Assembly (NCBI GenBank): GCA_041632295.1
Contig: JBFKII010000001.1
Span: 1-40,319, forward strand
DNA from: Anaerolineales bacterium
Lineage (GTDB): Bacteria > Chloroflexota > Anaerolineae > Anaerolineales > JABWBV01
Direction of reading: 5' to 3'
Length of the DNA stretch: 40,319 bases
The notes under the pieces: generated by a model
Told to the model about the DNA's origin: nothing
The model's input: the letters and a program-made list of their open reading frames with translations, nothing else
Database searches by the model: none
Shown here: piece by piece, positions 15,847 to 22,043 of the stretch
Layout of the letters: the number at the start of each line of letters is the position of its first letter
Position numbering within the stretch: the first letter of the stretch is position 1
Translations under genes and position numbers: made by a program

Positions 15847-17517
15847 TCAATTTTGGGGCAGGTCGATACAGTTGCCGCTTTCCAGGATAATCGAGTGGTC
15901 ATTGTGGGCGACGAGTGCGCAGATCTGGGTGGCATTCTGCGGCCGGGCGCCCACAGTCAACTGGGTGAAGGGGCTGGGCACATCATACAGGACCCAGGAT
16001 CCGCCACCCGTCGAATCACCAATGCCGTTGACGCCGACCGTGATCGGATCGTAGATGTTCCAGAAGAAATGGATGTGCATGCTGCCGGAAGCCGAGGAGA
16101 TGACCGGCTCGTAATTGAAAGTTTCGTAGGTGACTGCGTAGCTGCCCCCCTGGACCATGATGTCGGAGATGAAAACATAAGGTCCTTCCGGCACGGTAGC
16201 GGTCGGTGTGGGCGTGATTGTCGGCGTTCGGGAAGGAGTAGGGGTTAGAGTAGGGGGCGGGGTGTTCGTGGCCGTTGCTGAGGGCGCCGGAGTATCCGTG
16301 GCCGGGTCGACGATCGCTACGGCCTCGGTGGCGGTCGCCAGGACTTCCTGCGTGCCGTCCCCGCCAGAAAGCAGGCCTGGCAGGAAAATGGCCCCGAGGA
16401 TGATGCAACCCAACAGGAGCAGCGCGGCGGCTCCACCTCCAATCAGCAAAGTGCGGTTGATCCCTTTTCCGGTAGCGGATGGCTGGGGTCGGGAGGCTGG
16501 GGGCGGCTGGGTGGAGGGGGCTTGAGTCTGCGGACTGGCTGCAGGTTGGGCAGGTTCCACGTACGTGCCGGCAGGGGTCGGGGCGGGGGTCTCGACGTAC
16601 GTGCCCTCCGGGGTCGGTGCCTCAACCATCGTGCCTTCCACCATCGTGCCGGCCGGCTGTTCTTCCGTGGCTGGGGCGTCCTTGACGGCCCGCAGTGCGG
16701 CAGCCATTTCGGCCGCGCTCTGGTACCGTTGGGCCGGGTCCTTGGCCAGGGCCCGCTCGATCACCCTTTTGAACCCCGGGTGGGTGCCGGGCGTCAGACT
16801 GAGCACGTCCGGGATGGGGTCATTGAGGTGCATCATCATAATCGTCATGGCTGAGTCCGCTTCGTAGGGCGGCTTGCCGCTGACCATTTCGTACAGCATG
16901 ACCCCGAGGGAGTAGATATCCGCCCGGTGGTCCGGCCTTTCACCGCGGATCTGCTCGGGGGACATGTACAGAGCGGTGCCGACCACCGCGCCGGTGGCAG
17001 TGTGCTGCTTTTCCCCGACGATCTTGACGATCCCGAAGTCCATCAGGACGGGCTCGCCCTGGACGTTGATCATCAGGTTGGCGGGTTTGATATCGCGGTG
17101 GATCAGCCCGCGTTTGTGCGCATAGTCAACCGCATCGCAGGTCTTGGCGATTAAATCCGCGATTTCTGATGGGCTGTGCTTGCGGTTTTGTTCGTTGTAG
17201 CGCCGCAGGCGCTGCTGCAGCGATTCGCCGGGGACAAACTCCAGCACCATGTAATATGTGTCCCCATCGTGGTCGAAATCGTATACCTGGACGATGTTGG
17301 GATGGCGTAGCTGGGCGACTGCCGCGGCCTCGACCTCAAACCGGCGGACAAACTCCCCATCCTTGGACAGGTGCGGATGGATCAGCTTCACGGCCACGAT
17401 CCGCTTGAGATTGGGGTCGTTGGCCTTGTACACCGCAGACATCCCGCCCGAACCGAGCTCCTGCTCGATTTCGTAGCGTTCGTTGAGTTTGTAACCTATC
17501 CAGGAGGGCTGTGCCAT
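15847..17517 (-). CDS. Hanks-type Ser/Thr protein kinase with a TM helix and an uncharacterised ~115-aa ectodomain
   Basis: Kinase motifs GSGGMSAVYKA, VAVKL, HRDIKPANL, DFG and SPEQ. Pro/Thr-rich linker, TM helix aa ~357-383, extracellular C-terminus. AAGGAG lies 6 nt upstream of the ATG. Confidence 0.9.
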   Translation of the reverse strand: MAQPSWIGYKLNERYEIEQELGSGGMSAVYKANDPNLKRIVAVKLIHPHLSKDGEFVRRFEVEAAAVAQLRHPNIVQVYDFDHDGDTYYMVLEFVPGESLQQRLRRYNEQNRKHSPSEIADLIAKTCDAVDYAHKRGLIHRDIKPANLMINVQGEPVLMDFGIVKIVGEKQHTATGAVVGTALYMSPEQIRGERPDHRADIYSLGVMLYEMVSGKPPYEADSAMTIMMMHLNDPIPDVLSLTPGTHPGFKRVIERALAKDPAQRYQSAAEMAAALRAVKDAPATEEQPAGTMVEGTMVEAPTPEGTYVETPAPTPAGTYVEPAQPAASPQTQAPSTQPPPASRPQPSATGKGINRTLLIGGGAAALLLLGCIILGAIFLPGLLSGGDGTQEVLATATEAVAIVDPATDTPAPSATATNTPPPTLTPTPSRTPTITPTPTATVPEGPYVFISDIMVQGGSYAVTYETFNYEPVISSASGSMHIHFFWNIYDPITVGVNGIGDSTGGGSWVLYDVPSPFTQLTVGARPQNATQICALVAHNDHSIILESGNCIDLPQN

Positions 17518-17547
17518 TTCCTGCTCCTTGCTCTCGAATTGGGGCTG

Positions 17548-17576
17548 ATTCTACCCGAACCGGGCGCAGATGCCAC
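17548..17576 (-). promoter_or_regulatory. possible internal promoter for the kinase gene (GTGGCA, 17 nt, TAGAAT)
   Basis: The minus strand reads GTGGCA (17576-17571), a 17-nt spacer, then TAGAAT (17553-17548), in the 63-nt gap upstream of the kinase. Confidence 0.25.
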
Positions 17577-17580
17577 GGGG

Positions 17581-18609
17581 CTATTCCTCGATCAGGAACA
17601 GCCAGGCGTTGTCAAACTGGCAGATGGTGCGGCCGGACTCGCTCAACGCCACAAGGACCACGAAGCCCTTCTCGAACTCCACATCCGCTTCGCGGAAGGC
17701 CTGTTCGCTGGCCCGAAACTGGGCGTTGATCTGTCCCACGATATTGTCGTATTCCGCCTTGGCCGCATCATACGCTTCCTTGGCATCCGGATTGGTTTCG
17801 ATGTCGGGCGGGGGCGTTGGGGCGGGGGGGATGAAGGGCCGCTGGGGAGGGTCGTTGACGTTAAATTGGGCGATCTGGGTGTCGTTCGTGAATAAGGTGA
17901 CGATCGGCCCCCGCATGACCACAGTCATGCGGTTGGTGGTGTCGTTTCGCCAGTCAAAGTTCGGATCCAGGCCGTAGGCGAAAAAATCCTTGTTGTTCAA
18001 TATTTCCCCTTCCACCATGATGGCAAACTGCACCCGGCCGGACCCGCCGCGCGTGGCGATCAGCAGGTATTGGTCAAAAGCTTCCTGGATGCCGTTGTTG
18101 CGCAGGGCGAAGCCGCAGCCCGAGGTGCCGAACTGTGTGTTCCAGGTGATGTCCGCCGACATGACGAAATCGGTCACCACCGTGCCCAGAAACTGGTTGG
18201 CATAATCGTATTGCAAATATCCGTCGATATCGAGCGTCACGGGTGGATGGATCCAGGCCGGACGGCCTTTTTCCGGATCGACACCGTATTTGGGCAGCTC
18301 AGCCAGGATCGGGGCGAACGCCTGCCGGGTCGCTTCGATTTGCTCAGCGGACAGGGCGGCGATCGCTTCTGCAGTGGCCTGGGCGTTCAGCGCTTGCTGG
18401 GTGGCCTGGGCCTCCGCCGTGGCCAGGTTTCCGGCTGTATCGAAACCCTGATCGGGCGACTCGCCAGCCCGGGCGGTGGCGGTCTGGGCGACTTTCAAGG
18501 CCAGTGCCTCTGCAGTGGCTTGTGAATCGCTTTGCCCTCCGCCGCCTAAGCATGCCATGGCGGCCAGCAGAAGTGCCCCTAGGATCCATGCGATCTTTCG
18601 GCCTGCCAT
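17581..18609 (-). CDS. probable lipoprotein with a concanavalin/LamG-like (DUF1080-like) jelly-roll domain and an aromatic-heptad helix
   Basis: The true start is probably ATG 18609 (MAGRKIAWILGALLLAAMAC, signal peptide plus Cys), which overlaps the upstream TGA by 1 nt (TGATG). The core FVMSADITWNTQFGTSGCGFALRN...WRNDTTNRMTVVMRGPIVTLFTND resembles lectin-like jelly rolls. The fold assignment is tentative. Confidence 0.6.
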   Translation of the reverse strand: MAGRKIAWILGALLLAAMACLGGGGQSDSQATAEALALKVAQTATARAGESPDQGFDTAGNLATAEAQATQQALNAQATAEAIAALSAEQIEATRQAFAPILAELPKYGVDPEKGRPAWIHPPVTLDIDGYLQYDYANQFLGTVVTDFVMSADITWNTQFGTSGCGFALRNNGIQEAFDQYLLIATRGGSGRVQFAIMVEGEILNNKDFFAYGLDPNFDWRNDTTNRMTVVMRGPIVTLFTNDTQIAQFNVNDPPQRPFIPPAPTPPPDIETNPDAKEAYDAAKAEYDNIVGQINAQFRASEQAFREADVEFEKGFVVLVALSESGRTICQFDNAWLFLIEE

Positions 18610-21600
18610 CAGTTGTCTTTCCGCTTTTGCATGATCAGAGTGCCGGTCAGAAGTACACCGATGATTAACCCCTGGGCGGCCCAGGTTGAGAGCACACGGC
18701 CGTAGTATTCGCCGGTGTTTCCTTTGTCCACCCAGGCCCAACCGAAGCTGTCCCTGATCTGGTATACAGCCCCCTCGGCAGCGCTGACCGGAATTTCAGC
18801 CGCAGCGGCCGCAGCAAAGCGCTGGAACTCCTGCTCCACGACGGCCTCCTGGTAAGCTGCAAATTCCGCCGCGTAGATATCTGCTTCCGCCTGATAGGCT
18901 TCCAGGTCGGCTTTGTATTGTTCCTGGATACCTTCCACGAGCACCTGGTACTCTTGCAGGGCCGCCAGGTATTCGGCGACGGCGACCGTGTCCGCCTGGT
19001 TTTCAGGCTCGATCGGGGGCGGCGGGACGTCCGGCTCGGGCGGCGGGTCCCGCAGCGGAGCGGGCTCAGGAGGCAGCTCGGTTTCCTCGAACGTCCCCTC
19101 CACGTAGAACTGGCCCATGCCGGGGAAGTGGCAGGCGCTTTGGTCGATGATGTTCAGGCCCATGCAGCTGCATTCCTGGGTGCGCTGTTCCAGGTCCATG
19201 AGGGAGATGGTCTCCGGAGGCAGGTCCCAGCAGGGATCCGCCGCGATGTCCGAGCCCACTCCGGTGATCGCCATGAAGGCTTCGAAGCCCCAGCGAGTCG
19301 AAAACGGCGCGCTGATGAACTCCGGAACCGGAACCAATGCGCCCCCCAGCACGATTTGAGGCAGCATAAAAACGATCACGATCAGCGGTGCGGCATTCGA
19401 GGATGGGGCCAGCGCAGAGGCGAACAACCCCAGCATCATGCCCCCCATGGTCGCCAGGGCCATGCTGATGTACATCAGCACGAATTCGGTCGCGCCTCCG
19501 GGCATGTCGAAGGCGAAATAATGGATACCGATGTACCAGATGGCCTGGTAAAGGGCCAGCAGGCCTGCGACCCAGACCTTGGAGAAAATGTACGGGATGA
19601 TCTTCAGGTTGACCAGCCGCTCCCGCTTGTAGATCTCCCCCTCCTTGACGATCTCTCGCATCTGAGAAATGCCACCCAGCATCACTCCGTAAATGGTGAG
19701 GATAAACAGAGTGATGATGACCGCAAAGGCATCCCCATCCGCCCAGGCGAACGGATCGCGGCCCATCAGGCTGGCCAGCAGGATGTCGAGGGAGCCGATC
19801 ACCGGCGGTGCCAGAAGCATCAGCGCCAGGCTGAAGCGGTCGCGGGTCAGGATTTTCAGGTTGCGCGCCGATAGGATGAAGAACTGGCGCAAGGCGGAGA
19901 CTTGTTTGCGGGCCCGAGAATCGCCCGCAGTGGCCGCCCGCCCGGTTTCCGGCGTTTGCCGCCCCCCCTGCTGCATCATCTGGCTGCGGTCGGCCAGCGG
20001 GGTGGCCACGTAGCGGTTGTATGCCGGGTGGCGCATGTAGCGTTCGGCCCATTCCTGGGGACTGCCCTTTTGGGAATCGTCCAGCAGGGCGTAGATCTCG
20101 TCGAACTCCATCTCCCCGGCGCGCTGGTCGCGCTCGGAACGGTACTGGTTGAAATAGGAGAGCGCTTCATCCGGCGCCCCAAACCAGACCAGGTAGCCGC
20201 CGCGCGCCAGGAAGACCACCTTGTCGGCCAGCATGACGTTCTTGGTGGCATGCGTGATCAAAACGATGGTGCGTCCCTGGTCCGCCAGACGCCGCATGAG
20301 CTGCATCAGGGCGGTCTCCGTTCCAGGATCAAGCCCGGAGGATGGCTCGTCCAGGAAAAATAGCCCGGGTCGCGTCAGCAGCTCCACGCCGATGCTGACG
20401 CGTTTCTGCTGGCCGCCGGAAAGCTGGCTGATGGCCGTGTCCTTCCGGTGGGCGATGTCCAGGTCTTCCAACGTTTCCATCACTCGCTGGTGGCGCTCTG
20501 CCTTGCTGGTGTCCGGCGGCATGCGCAACTGGGCGGAGTAATCCAGGGCTTGAAAAACCGTCAATTCTTTGTGGATGATGTCCTTCTGCGGAACGTAGCC
20601 CAGGTTGTTGCGGATGGCGTCGAAATTCTCGTAAACGTCGATCCCGTTGACGAACACCTTGCCGTGCGTGGCAGGCCGGTAGCCGGCGATCGAGTCCACC
20701 AGGGTGGACTTGCCGCCTCCCGATTGGCCGACGACGACGATGAACTCGCGCGGCTCAAAATTGAGCGATATGTTCTGCAGGATGTTGAGGTCTTTGCGAA
20801 CCCACTTGTTCAGCCCCACGGCCTCGACTTCCAAACTGCCGCTCTCATCGATCTGAGACAGCTCGTCCTCCCCCATGACGAAATTGTAGGAACCGATCCG
20901 CACCGTGTCCTGGGCATTCAGCCACATTTCGCCTTCCACCGGACGGTTGTTGACGAACGTGCCGTTCGAACTGCGCAGATCGCGCACCCGGTAGCGTTTG
21001 CCCACCCTTTCAATCAGGGCGTGGTGCCGGGAAACCTGCGGGATGTCCAGGACGATATCGTTGGTAGGGTCGCGACCGATCTGCAGCACCGACTTTTCTC
21101 CAAAGCGCACCGTTTCCACCCGGCTCAAAGCTTCCGACGGGGCCAGGTAGGTCATGGTGACCATCAGTCCGGGGTCGTTGCTGCCGATGCGGATTTTGGC
21201 GCCGTGGTGCAGGCGGGTCGGCCTGGTGACCGTCGCGCCGTCCAGGAAGGTGGGGTTGCTGGCAGTGGGTTCCACGACCAGGTTGTATCCGCCGTCTTCC
21301 CGCTTTTCCAGCCGCGCGTGGTTGCGCGAGACGATCTTGGACCCGATCACGATATCGTTCCCCTGCTCCCTGCCGATGGTGACCTGCAGCCGGTTCAGGG
21401 GATACGTCTGGGAAGGACCGCCGGCCACGCTGACGGACAGCTCGGATGGTCCGGTCTGGCCGCCGATTTCCCCGATCACGGTCGCGGCTGCCCCGGAGGG
21501 GCCTGGGGGAGGCGGCGCCGGCTTGGGGGGTGGAGGGGGGTCGGCGCTGGGACGGCCGATCGGCCGTGGCGGGGAAGGCATTGCGGGCGAGGCCTCCACC

Positions 21601-21950
21601 CGGGTTCCACCTGCGGCGGAATCGGTCACTTCGGTCGATACGCCGGGCTGCGCCTCGATGCTGCAGACCAGGCGGACATTTTGACCCAGACCGATCTGAT
21701 CGCCGTTGCGCAGGGTGACCGCTTCGCTGATGCGCTGGCCGTTGACGAATGTGCCGTTGGTGCTTTCCAGGTCTTCGATCCGGAGTTTGCCGTCCTGGTA
21801 CAGGAGCCTGGCATGGCGGCTGGAGACGCCGCTCCCGGGGATCAGAAGGTCCGATGGTGCGACGCGCCCGATGATAGTCTCTGGCTGCGTGATTTCAAAT
21901 TCCATCCGGCGAGCAGAGACGCTGTCTAAAATAAGTTTAGGATTGCTCAA
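18609..21950 (-). CDS. triple-FHA-domain ABC transporter (FHA x3, NBD and ABC-2/ABCG-type permease fused), Rv1747-like
   Basis: Three FHA cores (IIGR..SSRHARL..STNGTFVNG; TIGRE..VSRNHARL; IGRD..VSRHHALI..SSNGTFVNN). Walker A GQSGGGKST, signature LSGGQQKR, Walker B LFFLDEPSSGLD. Six predicted TM helices. TTG start at 21950 with GGAAGG upstream. Confidence 0.9.
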   Translation of the reverse strand: MSNPKLILDSVSARRMEFEITQPETIIGRVAPSDLLIPGSGVSSRHARLLYQDGKLRIEDLESTNGTFVNGQRISEAVTLRNGDQIGLGQNVRLVCSIEAQPGVSTEVTDSAAGGTRVEASPAMPSPPRPIGRPSADPPPPPKPAPPPPGPSGAAATVIGEIGGQTGPSELSVSVAGGPSQTYPLNRLQVTIGREQGNDIVIGSKIVSRNHARLEKREDGGYNLVVEPTASNPTFLDGATVTRPTRLHHGAKIRIGSNDPGLMVTMTYLAPSEALSRVETVRFGEKSVLQIGRDPTNDIVLDIPQVSRHHALIERVGKRYRVRDLRSSNGTFVNNRPVEGEMWLNAQDTVRIGSYNFVMGEDELSQIDESGSLEVEAVGLNKWVRKDLNILQNISLNFEPREFIVVVGQSGGGKSTLVDSIAGYRPATHGKVFVNGIDVYENFDAIRNNLGYVPQKDIIHKELTVFQALDYSAQLRMPPDTSKAERHQRVMETLEDLDIAHRKDTAISQLSGGQQKRVSIGVELLTRPGLFFLDEPSSGLDPGTETALMQLMRRLADQGRTIVLITHATKNVMLADKVVFLARGGYLVWFGAPDEALSYFNQYRSERDQRAGEMEFDEIYALLDDSQKGSPQEWAERYMRHPAYNRYVATPLADRSQMMQQGGRQTPETGRAATAGDSRARKQVSALRQFFILSARNLKILTRDRFSLALMLLAPPVIGSLDILLASLMGRDPFAWADGDAFAVIITLFILTIYGVMLGGISQMREIVKEGEIYKRERLVNLKIIPYIFSKVWVAGLLALYQAIWYIGIHYFAFDMPGGATEFVLMYISMALATMGGMMLGLFASALAPSSNAAPLIVIVFMLPQIVLGGALVPVPEFISAPFSTRWGFEAFMAITGVGSDIAADPCWDLPPETISLMDLEQRTQECSCMGLNIIDQSACHFPGMGQFYVEGTFEETELPPEPAPLRDPPPEPDVPPPPIEPENQADTVAVAEYLAALQEYQVLVEGIQEQYKADLEAYQAEADIYAAEFAAYQEAVVEQEFQRFAAAAAAEIPVSAAEGAVYQIRDSFGWAWVDKGNTGEYYGRVLSTWAAQGLIIGVLLTGTLIMQKRKDN

Positions 21951-21992
21951 GGGAAAAACCTTCCTTCATTCTGGAAGTGAAGCATGCTTGAG

Positions 21993-21998
21993 ATTATA
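21993..21998 (-). promoter_or_regulatory. perfect -10 hexamer TATAAT upstream of the FHA-ABC gene
   Basis: TATAAT on the minus strand, 42 nt upstream of the TTG start. No convincing -35. Confidence 0.3.
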
Positions 21999-22043
21999 GC
22001 CCTATTGAATGATTCCCGCTACAAAAGACCGTTTTTCCAATAA

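What the first reader, a model, noticed from the sequence alone, without database searches (positions are those of the whole stretch)
15847..21950. Rv1747/PknF-like phospho-signalling export module, but with three FHA domains and an inserted lipoprotein gene
Three consecutive minus-strand genes encode this module. First, an 1113-aa fusion of FHA-FHA-FHA, an ABC nucleotide-binding domain and an ABC-2/ABCG-type permease. Second, a lipoprotein whose ATG overlaps the transporter's TGA by one base (TGATG at 18607-18611). Third, a Hanks-type Ser/Thr kinase with its own TM helix and ectodomain. In Mycobacterium tuberculosis the two-FHA ABC exporter Rv1747 is co-transcribed with, and regulated through Thr phosphorylation by, the kinase PknF; that is established knowledge. 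Here the same logic appears in an apparently non-actinobacterial context with an extra FHA domain. A Pro/Thr-containing disordered linker (aa ~100-175) is a plausible phospho-acceptor, and a dedicated lectin-like lipoprotein may define the exported or sensed substrate. The substrate and the role of the third FHA are unknown.
Basis: partly seen in the sequence, partly recalled or inferred. Interest (0 to 1): 0.65.

Follow-up and report, generated by a model that had tools for sequence, protein, structure and literature searches.

The report
Kinase-gated three-FHA ABC exporter with lipoprotein
An uncultured Anaerolineales (Chloroflexota) bacterium carries a three-gene unit: a membrane pump with three phosphothreonine-reading domains, an unstudied lectin-fold lipoprotein and a membrane Ser/Thr kinase; it resembles the Rv1747/PknF pair of Mycobacterium tuberculosis, is common in this bacterial group, and in many relatives sits beside a lipid-building PKS/NRPS enzyme that may make its cargo.

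Summary
Three co-directional minus-strand genes encode:
- a 1113-aa FHA-FHA-FHA-NBD-ABC2 permease (18609-21950);
- a 342-aa lipoprotein whose ATG overlaps the transporter's stop codon (TGATG, 18611-18607);
- a 556-aa Hanks kinase with a TM helix and an ectodomain (15847-17517).

All catalytic and phosphothreonine-binding motifs are intact. The arrangement is not unusual for this lineage.
- More than 1,800 full-length relatives exist. Of the 120 closest, 83 have three FHA domains and 37 have four.
- The lipoprotein follows the pump in 16 of 17 assessable close loci and in 6 of 6 further long contigs.
- The kinase follows in about two thirds of loci.

1. The lipoprotein has a ConA/galectin/DUF1080-like beta-sandwich fold.
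2. A motif, Thr-hydrophobic-hydrophobic-Glu/Asp, is repeated in the kinase juxtamembrane segment (4 copies here; 91 seen against 1 expected in 55 relatives). It recurs in the pump's FHA linker (121 against 6.4). Both copies are absent around distant FHA-ABC genes. These are likely shared phospho-acceptor and docking sites.
3. In about half of relatives the cassette lies head-to-head with a ~3,280-aa FAAL-PKS-NRPS-reductase. Its orthologue is on another contig of this genome. This suggests a lipid-like cargo.

Verdict: a new variant of a known kind, of moderate interest.

The parts
18609..21950 (-). Gene for the 1113-aa FHA-FHA-FHA-NBD-TMD half transporter (TTG start)
   Evidence: ORF; Pfam FHA x3, ABC_tran, ABC2_membrane; start supported by homologue N-termini; contiguous NBD+TMD alignment to ABCG2, residues 389-876 against 62-559, E 3.6e-33; TIGR00955, E 3e-59
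21651..21908 (-). FHA1 (residues ~15-100), with GR28-29, SSRH43-46 and STNGT
   Evidence: matches GarA and Rv1747 FHA chains in the PDB
21411..21650 (-). Pro-rich disordered FHA1-FHA2 linker (residues 101-180) with conserved T157 in ATVIGE (codon 21480-21482), the candidate phospho-acceptor
   Evidence: Linker statistics and motif in homologues
21135..21410 (-). FHA2 (residues ~181-272), with GR193-194 and SRNH208-211
20865..21116 (-). FHA3 (residues ~279-362), with GR292-293, SRHH307-310 and SSNGT
   Evidence: best PDB match is the EmbR FHA domain, E 6.5e-11
20151..20798 (-). Nucleotide-binding domain (residues ~385-600): Walker A GQSGGGKS, Q-loop YVPQ, signature LSGG, Walker B LFFLDE, H-loop TH566
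18636..19889 (-). ABC-2/ABCG-type membrane domain (residues 688-1105)
   Evidence: Pfam; hydrophobic segments; genome search hit at 19290-19889
18717..19262 (-). ~180-aa outer loop between TM5 and TM6: four invariant Cys (907, 927, 929, 940), a Pro-rich spacer and a helical segment
   Evidence: The Cys are 100% conserved in 61 homologues. The loop is 145-225 aa in all relatives measured (170-225 aa in all but one distant relative, L054), whether or not a lipoprotein is present
17581..18609 (-). Gene for the 342-aa lipoprotein, translationally coupled to the transporter (TGATG)
   Evidence: family of at least 481 'hypothetical' proteins with no Pfam domain; lies directly downstream of the pump in relatives
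18550..18609 (-). Signal peptide and lipobox (AAMAC, Cys20)
   Evidence: Sequence; Cys nearly invariant; Lgt present in the genome
17584..18276 (-). ConA/galectin/DUF1080-like beta-sandwich (residues 112-342). It carries a lineage-specific Pro-rich plus long-helix insertion (residues 251-312, nt 17674-17859) and invariant Cys165 and Cys330
   Evidence: AF2 model with pLDDT 82.9; Foldseek hits to GH43 C-domains, 8v31, CBM66 and galectins; weak PF06439 hits in 10/38 members; the insertion is absent in many homologues
15847..17517 (-). Gene for the 556-aa membrane Hanks Ser/Thr kinase; AGGAG lies 8 nt before the ATG
16678..17475 (-). Kinase domain (residues 15-280) with all catalytic motifs
16555..16647 (-). 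Four juxtamembrane G-T-[MY]-V-E repeats (T291, T296, T306, T318), candidate autophosphorylation and FHA-docking sites
   Evidence: 91 motifs observed against 1.0 expected in 55 related kinases; clade-specific
16369..16425 (-). Single TM helix of the kinase (residues 365-383)
15850..16197 (-). Kinase ectodomain (residues 441-556): a small beta-sandwich with invariant His481, His483, His541, Cys533 and Cys550
   Evidence: Alignment A2; AF2 pLDDT 85.9, pTM 0.80; no significant PDB match

Best explanation
The three genes form one functional unit: a phosphorylation-gated ABCG-type exporter.

Shown by sequence and comparison:
- The pump is an intact NBD-TMD half transporter, presumably a homodimer. 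It has three FHA domains that look competent to bind phosphothreonine.
- The lipoprotein is translationally coupled to the pump and almost always encoded with it.
- The kinase is catalytically intact.

Inferred:
1. The kinase ectodomain senses an extracytoplasmic cue.
2. The kinase autophosphorylates the four GT[MY]VE repeats in its juxtamembrane segment and the related Thr (T157, ATVIGE) in the pump's FHA1-FHA2 linker.
3. The FHA domains bind these phosphothreonines, both on the kinase and within or between pump subunits, as described for Rv1747/PknF. This switches or clusters the pump.
4. The lectin-fold lipoprotein sits on the outer face next to the pump's 180-residue disulfide-bonded loop. 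It acts as an accessory or acceptor subunit.
5. The cargo is most likely an amphiphilic lipid-like product of the FAAL-ACP-KS-AT-ACP-C-A-PCP-R megasynthase. That gene lies head-to-head with the cassette in many relatives and is present elsewhere in this genome.

Sub-confidences:
- Rv1747/PknF-like regulated exporter: ~0.85.
- Lipoprotein is a subunit or partner of the pump: ~0.75.
- T-h-h-E motifs are the phospho and docking sites: ~0.5.
- Cargo is the PKS/NRPS product: ~0.4.
For: Domains and motifs
- Domain architecture and intact motifs.
- TGATG coupling.

Synteny
- Pump followed by lipoprotein in 16/17 assessable loci with at least 46% identity, and in 6/6 further long contigs.
- Kinase adjacent in 10/15 and 5/6 of these.

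Motif
- T-[VILMFY]2-[ED] occurs 91 times against 1.0 expected in the juxtamembrane regions of 55 kinases that share the ectodomain.
- The same motif, allowing an optional G/A, occurs 121 times against 6.4 expected in the long FHA linkers of 120 pumps; 89/120 proteins carry it.
- It is present in 12 of 13 kinases in lipoprotein-type cassettes (at least one per cassette) and in 13/16 of their pumps. It is absent from 0/8 kinases next to distant FHA-ABC genes and found in only 1 of their 9 pumps.
- In this genome only the cassette kinase has four copies, out of 14 kinases.

Lipoprotein fold.

PKS/NRPS link
- Divergent neighbour in L004, L008, L041-L044, L046, L047, L056, L072, L075 and L078-L080.
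- The orthologue is in this genome at C12:5321-15151.
- The orthologue is present in 10/15 genomes with the core pump against 1/46 without (Fisher p = 3e-7).
- In the closest relatives, L001 and L040, the stand-alone KS that flanks the megasynthase in this genome lies directly upstream of the pump.

Rv1747/PknF mechanism: PMC3138270, PMC8339232.
Against:
- In this genome the megasynthase is on another contig, and an amidase gene lies upstream of the pump.
- About half of the cassettes have no PKS/NRPS nearby.
- A third of cassettes lack an adjacent kinase.
- The window's linker motif has Gly at +3 (TVIGE) rather than the TxxE of the kinase repeats.
- The co-occurrence counts are not corrected for phylogeny.
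- The genome has 14 kinases and 14 FHA proteins, so cross-talk is possible.
- No PP2C phosphatase is in the cassette.
Confidence: 0.6

Rival explanations
1. The pump exports or flips a cell-envelope glycoconjugate or glycolipid unrelated to the PKS/NRPS, as proposed for Rv1747. The lectin-fold lipoprotein recognises the sugar part. The PKS/NRPS adjacency is only a neighbourhood effect.
For: - The lipoprotein fold is that of sugar-binding and sugar-processing modules: CBM66, galectins and DUF1080.
- Variant locus L074 lies beside a glycosyltransferase cluster.
- Half of the cassettes have no PKS/NRPS nearby, and neither does this window.
- Rv1747 has been linked to glycolipid export (PMC8339232).
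Against: - The head-to-head arrangement with the same megasynthase recurs across several families and an additional order.
- Presence of the megasynthase and of the pump is strongly associated.
- No conserved glycosyltransferase neighbour was found in the clustering of flanking ORFs.
Confidence: 0.2
2. The ABC protein does not transport anything. It is a mechanotransmitter or sensor in the manner of FtsEX or BceAB. ATP-driven movements of the large outer loop would control the lipoprotein or the kinase ectodomain outside the membrane.
For: - A large, conserved, disulfide-bonded outer loop with a helical segment.
- An obligately coupled lipoprotein.
- Weak similarity between the loop and the lipoprotein's helical insertion (BLASTP E 0.007).
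Against: - The membrane domain is ABC-2/ABCG type, and it aligns contiguously with ABCG2. Characterised members of that type are exporters.
- The lipoprotein insertion is missing in many lineages while the loop is always present, so the two do not co-vary.
- No enzyme domain was recognised in the lipoprotein.
Confidence: 0.1
3. The genes are neighbours but not a dedicated signalling pair. The kinase mainly acts on other substrates, and the pump's FHA domains read phosphothreonines made by other kinases.
For: - The genome has 14 kinases and 14 FHA proteins.
- About a third of cassettes lack an adjacent kinase.
- The kinase gene has its own Shine-Dalgarno sequence and a promoter-like site upstream.
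Against: - Kinases that carry this particular ectodomain and juxtamembrane motif are found next to the pump whenever their context was examined.
- The motif co-varies between the kinase and the pump linker.
Confidence: 0.1

Closest known systems
Rv1747 (FHA-FHA-NBD-TMD ABC exporter) with its operon kinase PknF, Mycobacterium tuberculosis
   Same: - N-terminal FHA domains fused to an ABC-2/ABCG-type half transporter.
- A disordered Thr-bearing linker between the FHA domains.
- A membrane Hanks kinase encoded alongside.
- FHA1 matches the solved Rv1747 FHA chain 6cah_A (E 5e-8).
- Mechanism of Rv1747: PknF phosphorylates T152 and T210 in the linker, the FHA domains bind, and the transporter is positively regulated (PMC3138270, PMC8339232).
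   Different: - Three (or four in relatives) FHA domains rather than two.
- Only one long linker.
- Gene order is pump-lipoprotein-kinase.
- An obligate lectin-fold lipoprotein partner.
- A ~180-aa Cys/Pro/helix outer loop.
- A clade-specific T-h-h-E motif shared by the kinase and the pump.
- Frequent pairing with a PKS/NRPS.
- Phylum Chloroflexota.
- Direct orthology to Rv1747 was not tested, because no M. tuberculosis sequence was at hand.
Eukaryotic ABCG half transporters (ABCG2; White family, TIGR00955)
   Same: - NBD-then-TMD order.
- Contiguous alignment over both domains.
- TIGR00955 hit at E 3e-59.
- A Cys-bearing last outer loop.
   Different: - The score is far below the TIGR00955 cut-off (201 against 736 bits).
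- It has FHA domains.
- The outer loop is much longer.
- It is bacterial.
DUF1080 / 3-keto-disaccharide hydrolase (PF06439) and other ConA-like lectin modules (CBM66, galectins)
   Same: - The beta-sandwich fold of the lipoprotein (Foldseek E ~1e-5; TM-score up to 0.71 on CBM66).
- Recurrent weak PF06439 hits.
   Different: - Sequence identity is 5-13%.
- The window protein scores 12.8 bits against a cut-off of 26.8.
- It has an N-terminal helical stalk, a lipid anchor and a 62-aa Pro/helix insertion.
- There is no evidence for sugar binding or catalysis.
Triple-FHA ABCG pump plus DUF1080-like lipoprotein noted earlier in this scan in another Anaerolineae genome (e1-4374141)
   Same: The same module and the same comparison with Rv1747.
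   Different: That note, as far as shown, left the cargo open. A word search of the earlier notes for FHA/ABC together with polyketide/NRPS terms found nothing.

Membership tests
Rv1747/PknF-type FHA-regulated ABC exporter module | FHA domain(s) fused N-terminally to an NBD-TMD ABC-2-type half transporter | tested here: met
   Pfam FHA x3, ABC_tran and ABC2_membrane
Rv1747/PknF-type FHA-regulated ABC exporter module | FHA domains keep the phosphothreonine-binding residues: Arg of the GR loop, Ser/His of SxxH, and Asn of the beta6-7 loop | tested here: met
   GR28, GR193 and GR292; SSRH, SRNH and SRHH; TNG, SNP and SNG
Rv1747/PknF-type FHA-regulated ABC exporter module | Disordered inter-FHA linker carrying phospho-acceptor Thr | tested here: inconclusive
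   There is an 80-aa Pro-rich linker with conserved T157 and an enriched motif. Phosphorylation cannot be tested with these tools
Rv1747/PknF-type FHA-regulated ABC exporter module | Hanks kinase encoded in the same operon | tested here: met
   The kinase is adjacent, co-directional and syntenic in many relatives.
Rv1747/PknF-type FHA-regulated ABC exporter module | The kinase phosphorylates the transporter and this regulates transport | not testable with these tools
   Needs biochemistry
Rv1747/PknF-type FHA-regulated ABC exporter module | Orthology to Rv1747 | not tested
   No M. tuberculosis genome was among the searchable sets. The only evidence is a PDB FHA chain match at E 5e-8
ABCG-type half transporter | NBD precedes TMD, with contiguous similarity over both to ABCG proteins | tested here: met
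   ABCG2 residues 62-559 align with residues 389-876, E 3.6e-33; TIGR00955 positions 32-523, E 3e-59
ABCG-type half transporter | Reaches the curated score of the White/ABCG subfamily model | tested here: not met
   201 bits against a cut-off of 736: related, but not a member of that subfamily
Bacterial lipoprotein | Signal peptide with lipobox Cys, and Lgt in the genome | tested here: met
   MAGRKIAWILGALLLAAMAC; conserved Cys; four Lgt matches
DUF1080 / 3-keto-disaccharide hydrolase (PF06439) | Pfam gathering score | tested here: not met
   12.8 bits against 26.8; 10/38 homologues give weak hits, best E 9.5e-4
DUF1080 / 3-keto-disaccharide hydrolase (PF06439) | ConA-like beta-sandwich fold | tested here: met
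   AF2 model plus Foldseek hits to 8v31, 3nmb, 4hxc, 4b1m and galectins
Hanks-type Ser/Thr kinase | Gly-rich loop, VAxK, HRDxKxxN, DFG and SPE/APE motifs | tested here: met
PASTA kinase (PknB/Stk1, NF033483) | PASTA ectodomain and curated score | tested here: not met
   364.7 bits against a cut-off of 450. The match covers residues 8-381 only. The ectodomain is a different small beta-sandwich

The most novel reading that the evidence does not exclude
The cassette is the dedicated, signal-gated export arm of an undescribed lipid natural-product pathway of Anaerolineales, built around a FAAL-PKS-NRPS-reductase.
- The kinase's tandem phospho-TxxE repeats would act as a multivalent docking platform for the pump's three or four FHA domains.
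- This would cluster or open the pump.
- The lectin-fold lipoprotein would receive the amphiphilic product at the outer face.

That would give an FHA-ABC exporter a genetically defined candidate cargo.
Probability: 0.3. Interest if true: 0.72.

Novelty: new variant of a known kind. Interest (0 to 1): 0.55.

Why it matters
Rv1747/PknF is the only studied example of a pump that a Ser/Thr kinase switches through built-in FHA domains, and its cargo is still debated. This Chloroflexota family is large and offers several useful features.
- It is a natural series with three or four FHA domains.
- It has a clear candidate phospho-motif, shared by the kinase and the pump.
- It has a new obligate outer-face partner protein.
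- Through the recurrent head-to-head PKS/NRPS gene, it has a testable candidate cargo.

It also assigns a context to two protein families that have no annotation: the lipoprotein and the kinase ectodomain.

Tried and rejected
- **Insertion co-evolution.** I tested whether the lipoprotein's Pro/helix insertion and the pump's outer-loop insertion co-evolve. They do not. The loop is 145-225 aa in all relatives, while the lipoprotein insertion is 61-63 aa in some lineages and 5-14 aa in others. Their direct similarity is weak (BLASTP E 0.007).
- **Lipoprotein families.** Pfam and NCBIfam gave no hit for the lipoprotein at normal thresholds.
- **Kinase ectodomain.** The model is confident but has no significant PDB match (best E 0.025), so the sensed signal stays unknown.
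- **Comparison with Rv1747.** A direct sequence comparison was not possible.
- **Promoters and terminators.** The consensus scan gave only weak sites.
- **Literature.** Searches found no paper on three-FHA ABC transporters or on this module in Chloroflexota.
- **Class-wide sampling.** The lipoprotein appeared in only 3/401 genomes of an even class-wide sample. Sampling of relatives showed this reflects a clade-restricted distribution (19/61), not rarity.
Full report
**Observation**

The window (about 60% G+C) carries three co-directional minus-strand ORFs at 18609-21950, 17581-18609 and 15847-17517.
- Pfam finds three FHA stretches (E 2e-57), ABC_tran (residues 391-537) and ABC2_membrane (residues 688-887) in the first ORF, and Pkinase in the third. 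It finds nothing in the second. NCBIfam agrees.
- The stop and start overlap, TGATG, was read at 18611-18607.
- A 63-nt spacer with AGGAG precedes the kinase ATG.
- The TTG start at 21950 is right. Homologues begin MSNPKLIL..., which matches residues 1-10. The shorter database call from M16 would remove the first strand of FHA1.
- All functional motifs are intact: Walker A and B, Q-loop, signature and H-loop in the pump; GR / SxxH / N in each FHA domain; and the Gly-loop, VAVK, HRDIKPAN, DFG and SPE in the kinase.
- The neighbouring genes are ordinary chromosomal genes: an amidase upstream, and two CNNM/CorC genes and a UPF0029 gene downstream.

**Organism and family size**

The pump has more than 1,860 full-length relatives at E <= 0.001. 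The closest 120 share 53-68% identity. Where named, they come from Anaerolineales/Chloroflexota MAGs and are called only 'FHA domain-containing protein'.
- Among these 120, 83 have three FHA domains and 37 have four.
- More distant relatives in Chloroflexus- and Anaerolinea-type MAGs also have three.
- Three FHA domains are therefore the rule in this lineage, not a peculiarity of this genome.
- The genome has only this one FHA-ABC gene, among 14 FHA-containing ORFs and 14 kinase ORFs.

**Synteny**

In loci from species-representative genomes and in regions fetched from relatives, the lipoprotein gene directly follows the pump in 16 of 17 assessable loci whose pump is at least 46% identical. 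The kinase follows in 10 of 15.

I also examined six further homologues, chosen only because they lie on long contigs.
- All six have a 280-345-aa ORF with no Pfam match immediately downstream of the pump.
- Five have a kinase within 7 kb.

Starting instead from the kinase side led back to the same cassette.

Among 61 relatives, 19 genomes have the lipoprotein and 20 have the pump, and these are largely the same genomes. An even class-wide sample gave only 3 of 401, so the lipoprotein is restricted to a clade. Distant FHA-ABC genes (at most 43% identity) lack the lipoprotein but often have one or more kinases beside them. The pump-lipoprotein pair is thus the core unit, and the kinase is a frequent third member.

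**The lipoprotein**

The family has at least 481 members, all 'hypothetical' and without a Pfam domain.
- It has a signal peptide and lipobox. The Cys is nearly invariant, and the genome encodes Lgt.
- The AlphaFold model (pLDDT 82.9) shows Ala/Thr/Gln-rich helices followed by a beta-sandwich.
- Foldseek matches the sandwich to ConA-like modules: the C-terminal domains of GH43 enzymes, DUF1080/3-keto-glucal hydratase (8v31, 3nmb, 4hxc), CBM66 (TM-score up to 0.71) and galectins. E-values are about 1e-5 at 5-13% identity.
- Ten of 38 members give weak PF06439 hits (best E 9.5e-4).
- 'Lectin-like' is therefore correct for the fold. Sugar binding is not shown.
- A 62-residue Pro-rich plus long-helix insertion (residues 251-312) is present only in some lineages.

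**The outer loop of the pump**

The loop between TM5 and TM6 is about 180 residues. Its four Cys are invariant in 61 homologues.
- It is present, at 145-225 aa, in every relative measured (170-225 aa in all but the distant L054). This holds whether or not the lipoprotein is present or carries its insertion.
- The similarity between the loop and the lipoprotein insertion, which another first-stage note had flagged, is weak (E 0.007). The two features do not co-vary.

**A shared threonine motif**

The kinase juxtamembrane segment carries GTMVE, GTMVE, GTYVE and GTYVE (T291, T296, T306, T318).

| Test | Observed | Expected from shuffles |
|---|---|---|
| T-[VILMFY]-[VILMFY]-[ED] between kinase domain and TM helix, 55 kinases sharing this ectodomain | 91 (43 kinases with at least one) | 1.0 |
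| Same motif, optional G/A before the acidic residue, in long FHA linkers of 120 pumps | 121 (89 proteins with at least one) | 6.4 |
| Same motif in the rest of those pump proteins | about 2.5-fold enriched | - |

- The window's copy in the pump linker is T157 in ATVIGE.
- In lipoprotein-type cassettes, 12 of the 13 kinases have the motif, so every cassette has at least one kinase with it, and 13 of 16 pumps have it. Around distant FHA-ABC genes, 0 of 8 kinases and only 1 of 9 pumps have it.
- In this genome only the cassette kinase has four copies. One other kinase has two.
- This pattern is what one expects if the motif is the preferred phospho-acceptor of this kinase clade and the ligand of these FHA domains. 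That reading is an inference. It mirrors the Rv1747/PknF mechanism, in which PknF phosphorylates linker threonines T152 and T210 and the FHA domains bind them (PMC3138270, PMC8339232).

**The kinase ectodomain**

The 116-residue C-terminal domain is conserved in at least 65 kinases. His481, His483, His541, Cys533 and Cys550 are invariant. It folds confidently as a small beta-sandwich (pLDDT 85.9, pTM 0.80) but has no significant PDB match. What it senses is unknown.

**A candidate cargo**

Clustering the flanking ORFs of related loci showed one recurrent neighbour. It is a megasynthase of about 3,280 aa with the domain order FAAL-ACP-KS-AT-ACP-C-A-PCP-reductase (Pfam). It is transcribed divergently from the pump.
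- It is adjacent in L004, L008, L041-L044, L046, L047 and L056, in L072/L073, and in four of the six unselected long contigs.
- In this genome the orthologue (48-59% identical) lies on another contig, at C12:5321-15151. It sits with a sulfotransferase, a stand-alone ketosynthase, a GT-C-like membrane protein, an FkbM methyltransferase and an FAD mono-oxygenase.
- In the two closest relatives with upstream sequence (L001, L040), the orthologue of that stand-alone ketosynthase lies between the amidase gene and the pump. The window's arrangement, with the amidase directly next to the pump, therefore looks derived.
- Among 61 relatives the megasynthase orthologue is present in 10 of 15 genomes with the core pump and in 1 of 46 without (Fisher p = 3e-7). 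This count is not corrected for phylogeny.

From general knowledge of such assembly lines, the product would be a fatty-acyl, one-ketide, one-amino-acid compound released by a reductase-type domain. That is an amphiphilic lipid, and a plausible ABCG substrate. This step is a lead, not a demonstration.

**Comparison and verdict**

The unit works like Rv1747/PknF and meets all the sequence-level features of that kind of module. It differs in several respects:
- the number of FHA domains;
- the gene order;
- the obligate lectin-fold lipoprotein;
- the long disulfide-bonded outer loop;
- the shared T-h-h-E motif;
- the frequent PKS/NRPS partner.

No paper on it was found.

I rate it a new variant of a known kind, with interest 0.55.

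Not done:
- any biochemistry;
- a direct comparison with the Rv1747 sequence.

Noticed in passing
G000 contig C12:1-20000 (locus L060): The window's genome carries a FAAL-ACP-KS-AT-ACP-C-A-PCP-R megasynthase of 3,276 aa. Around it lie a sulfotransferase, a stand-alone KS, a TMEM260-like GT-C protein, an FkbM methyltransferase and an FAD mono-oxygenase. This is an undescribed biosynthetic cluster whose orthologues usually sit beside the FHA-ABC cassette.
   Followed up: partly
L049 (G418:C1:1503000-1522000): In a complete 6.4-Mb relative the pump gene is split. Residues 17-773 and 830-1112 lie about 2.6 kb apart. The lipoprotein gene reads in three pieces. The cassette looks interrupted or decaying there.
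   Followed up: no
L074:5532-12976: A variant cassette: the pump and kinase are followed by a 566-aa protein with two FHA domains fused to an LCAT-like lipase/acyltransferase domain. There is no lipoprotein, and the locus lies next to a glycosyltransferase/FkbM cluster.
   Followed up: no
L079:1759-6690 and L080:1519-6256: In two relatives a second kinase, small ORFs and a SpaA/Cna-B-like surface protein lie between the megasynthase and the pump.
   Followed up: no
window 21951-22043: The 93-nt spacer upstream of the pump holds a TATAAT-like box (about 21999-21994). It also holds a terminator-like hairpin with a T-run (21977-21960), which lies between that box and the TTG start. This could be the amidase terminator or a leader element.
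   Followed up: no
G000 contig C246:275-1816 (-): A second kinase of this genome carries two T-h-h-E motifs (TVVE, TVIE) just after its kinase domain. Its partners were not examined.
   Followed up: no
window 21905-21950: The public protein cluster for this pump starts at Met16 (1,098 aa). The homologue N-termini show that the TTG at 21950 is the better start.
   Followed up: yes
L040:2833-3930 and L048:4119-5132: A 340-366-aa ORF with no Pfam match recurs just upstream of the pump in two relatives from different families.
   Followed up: no
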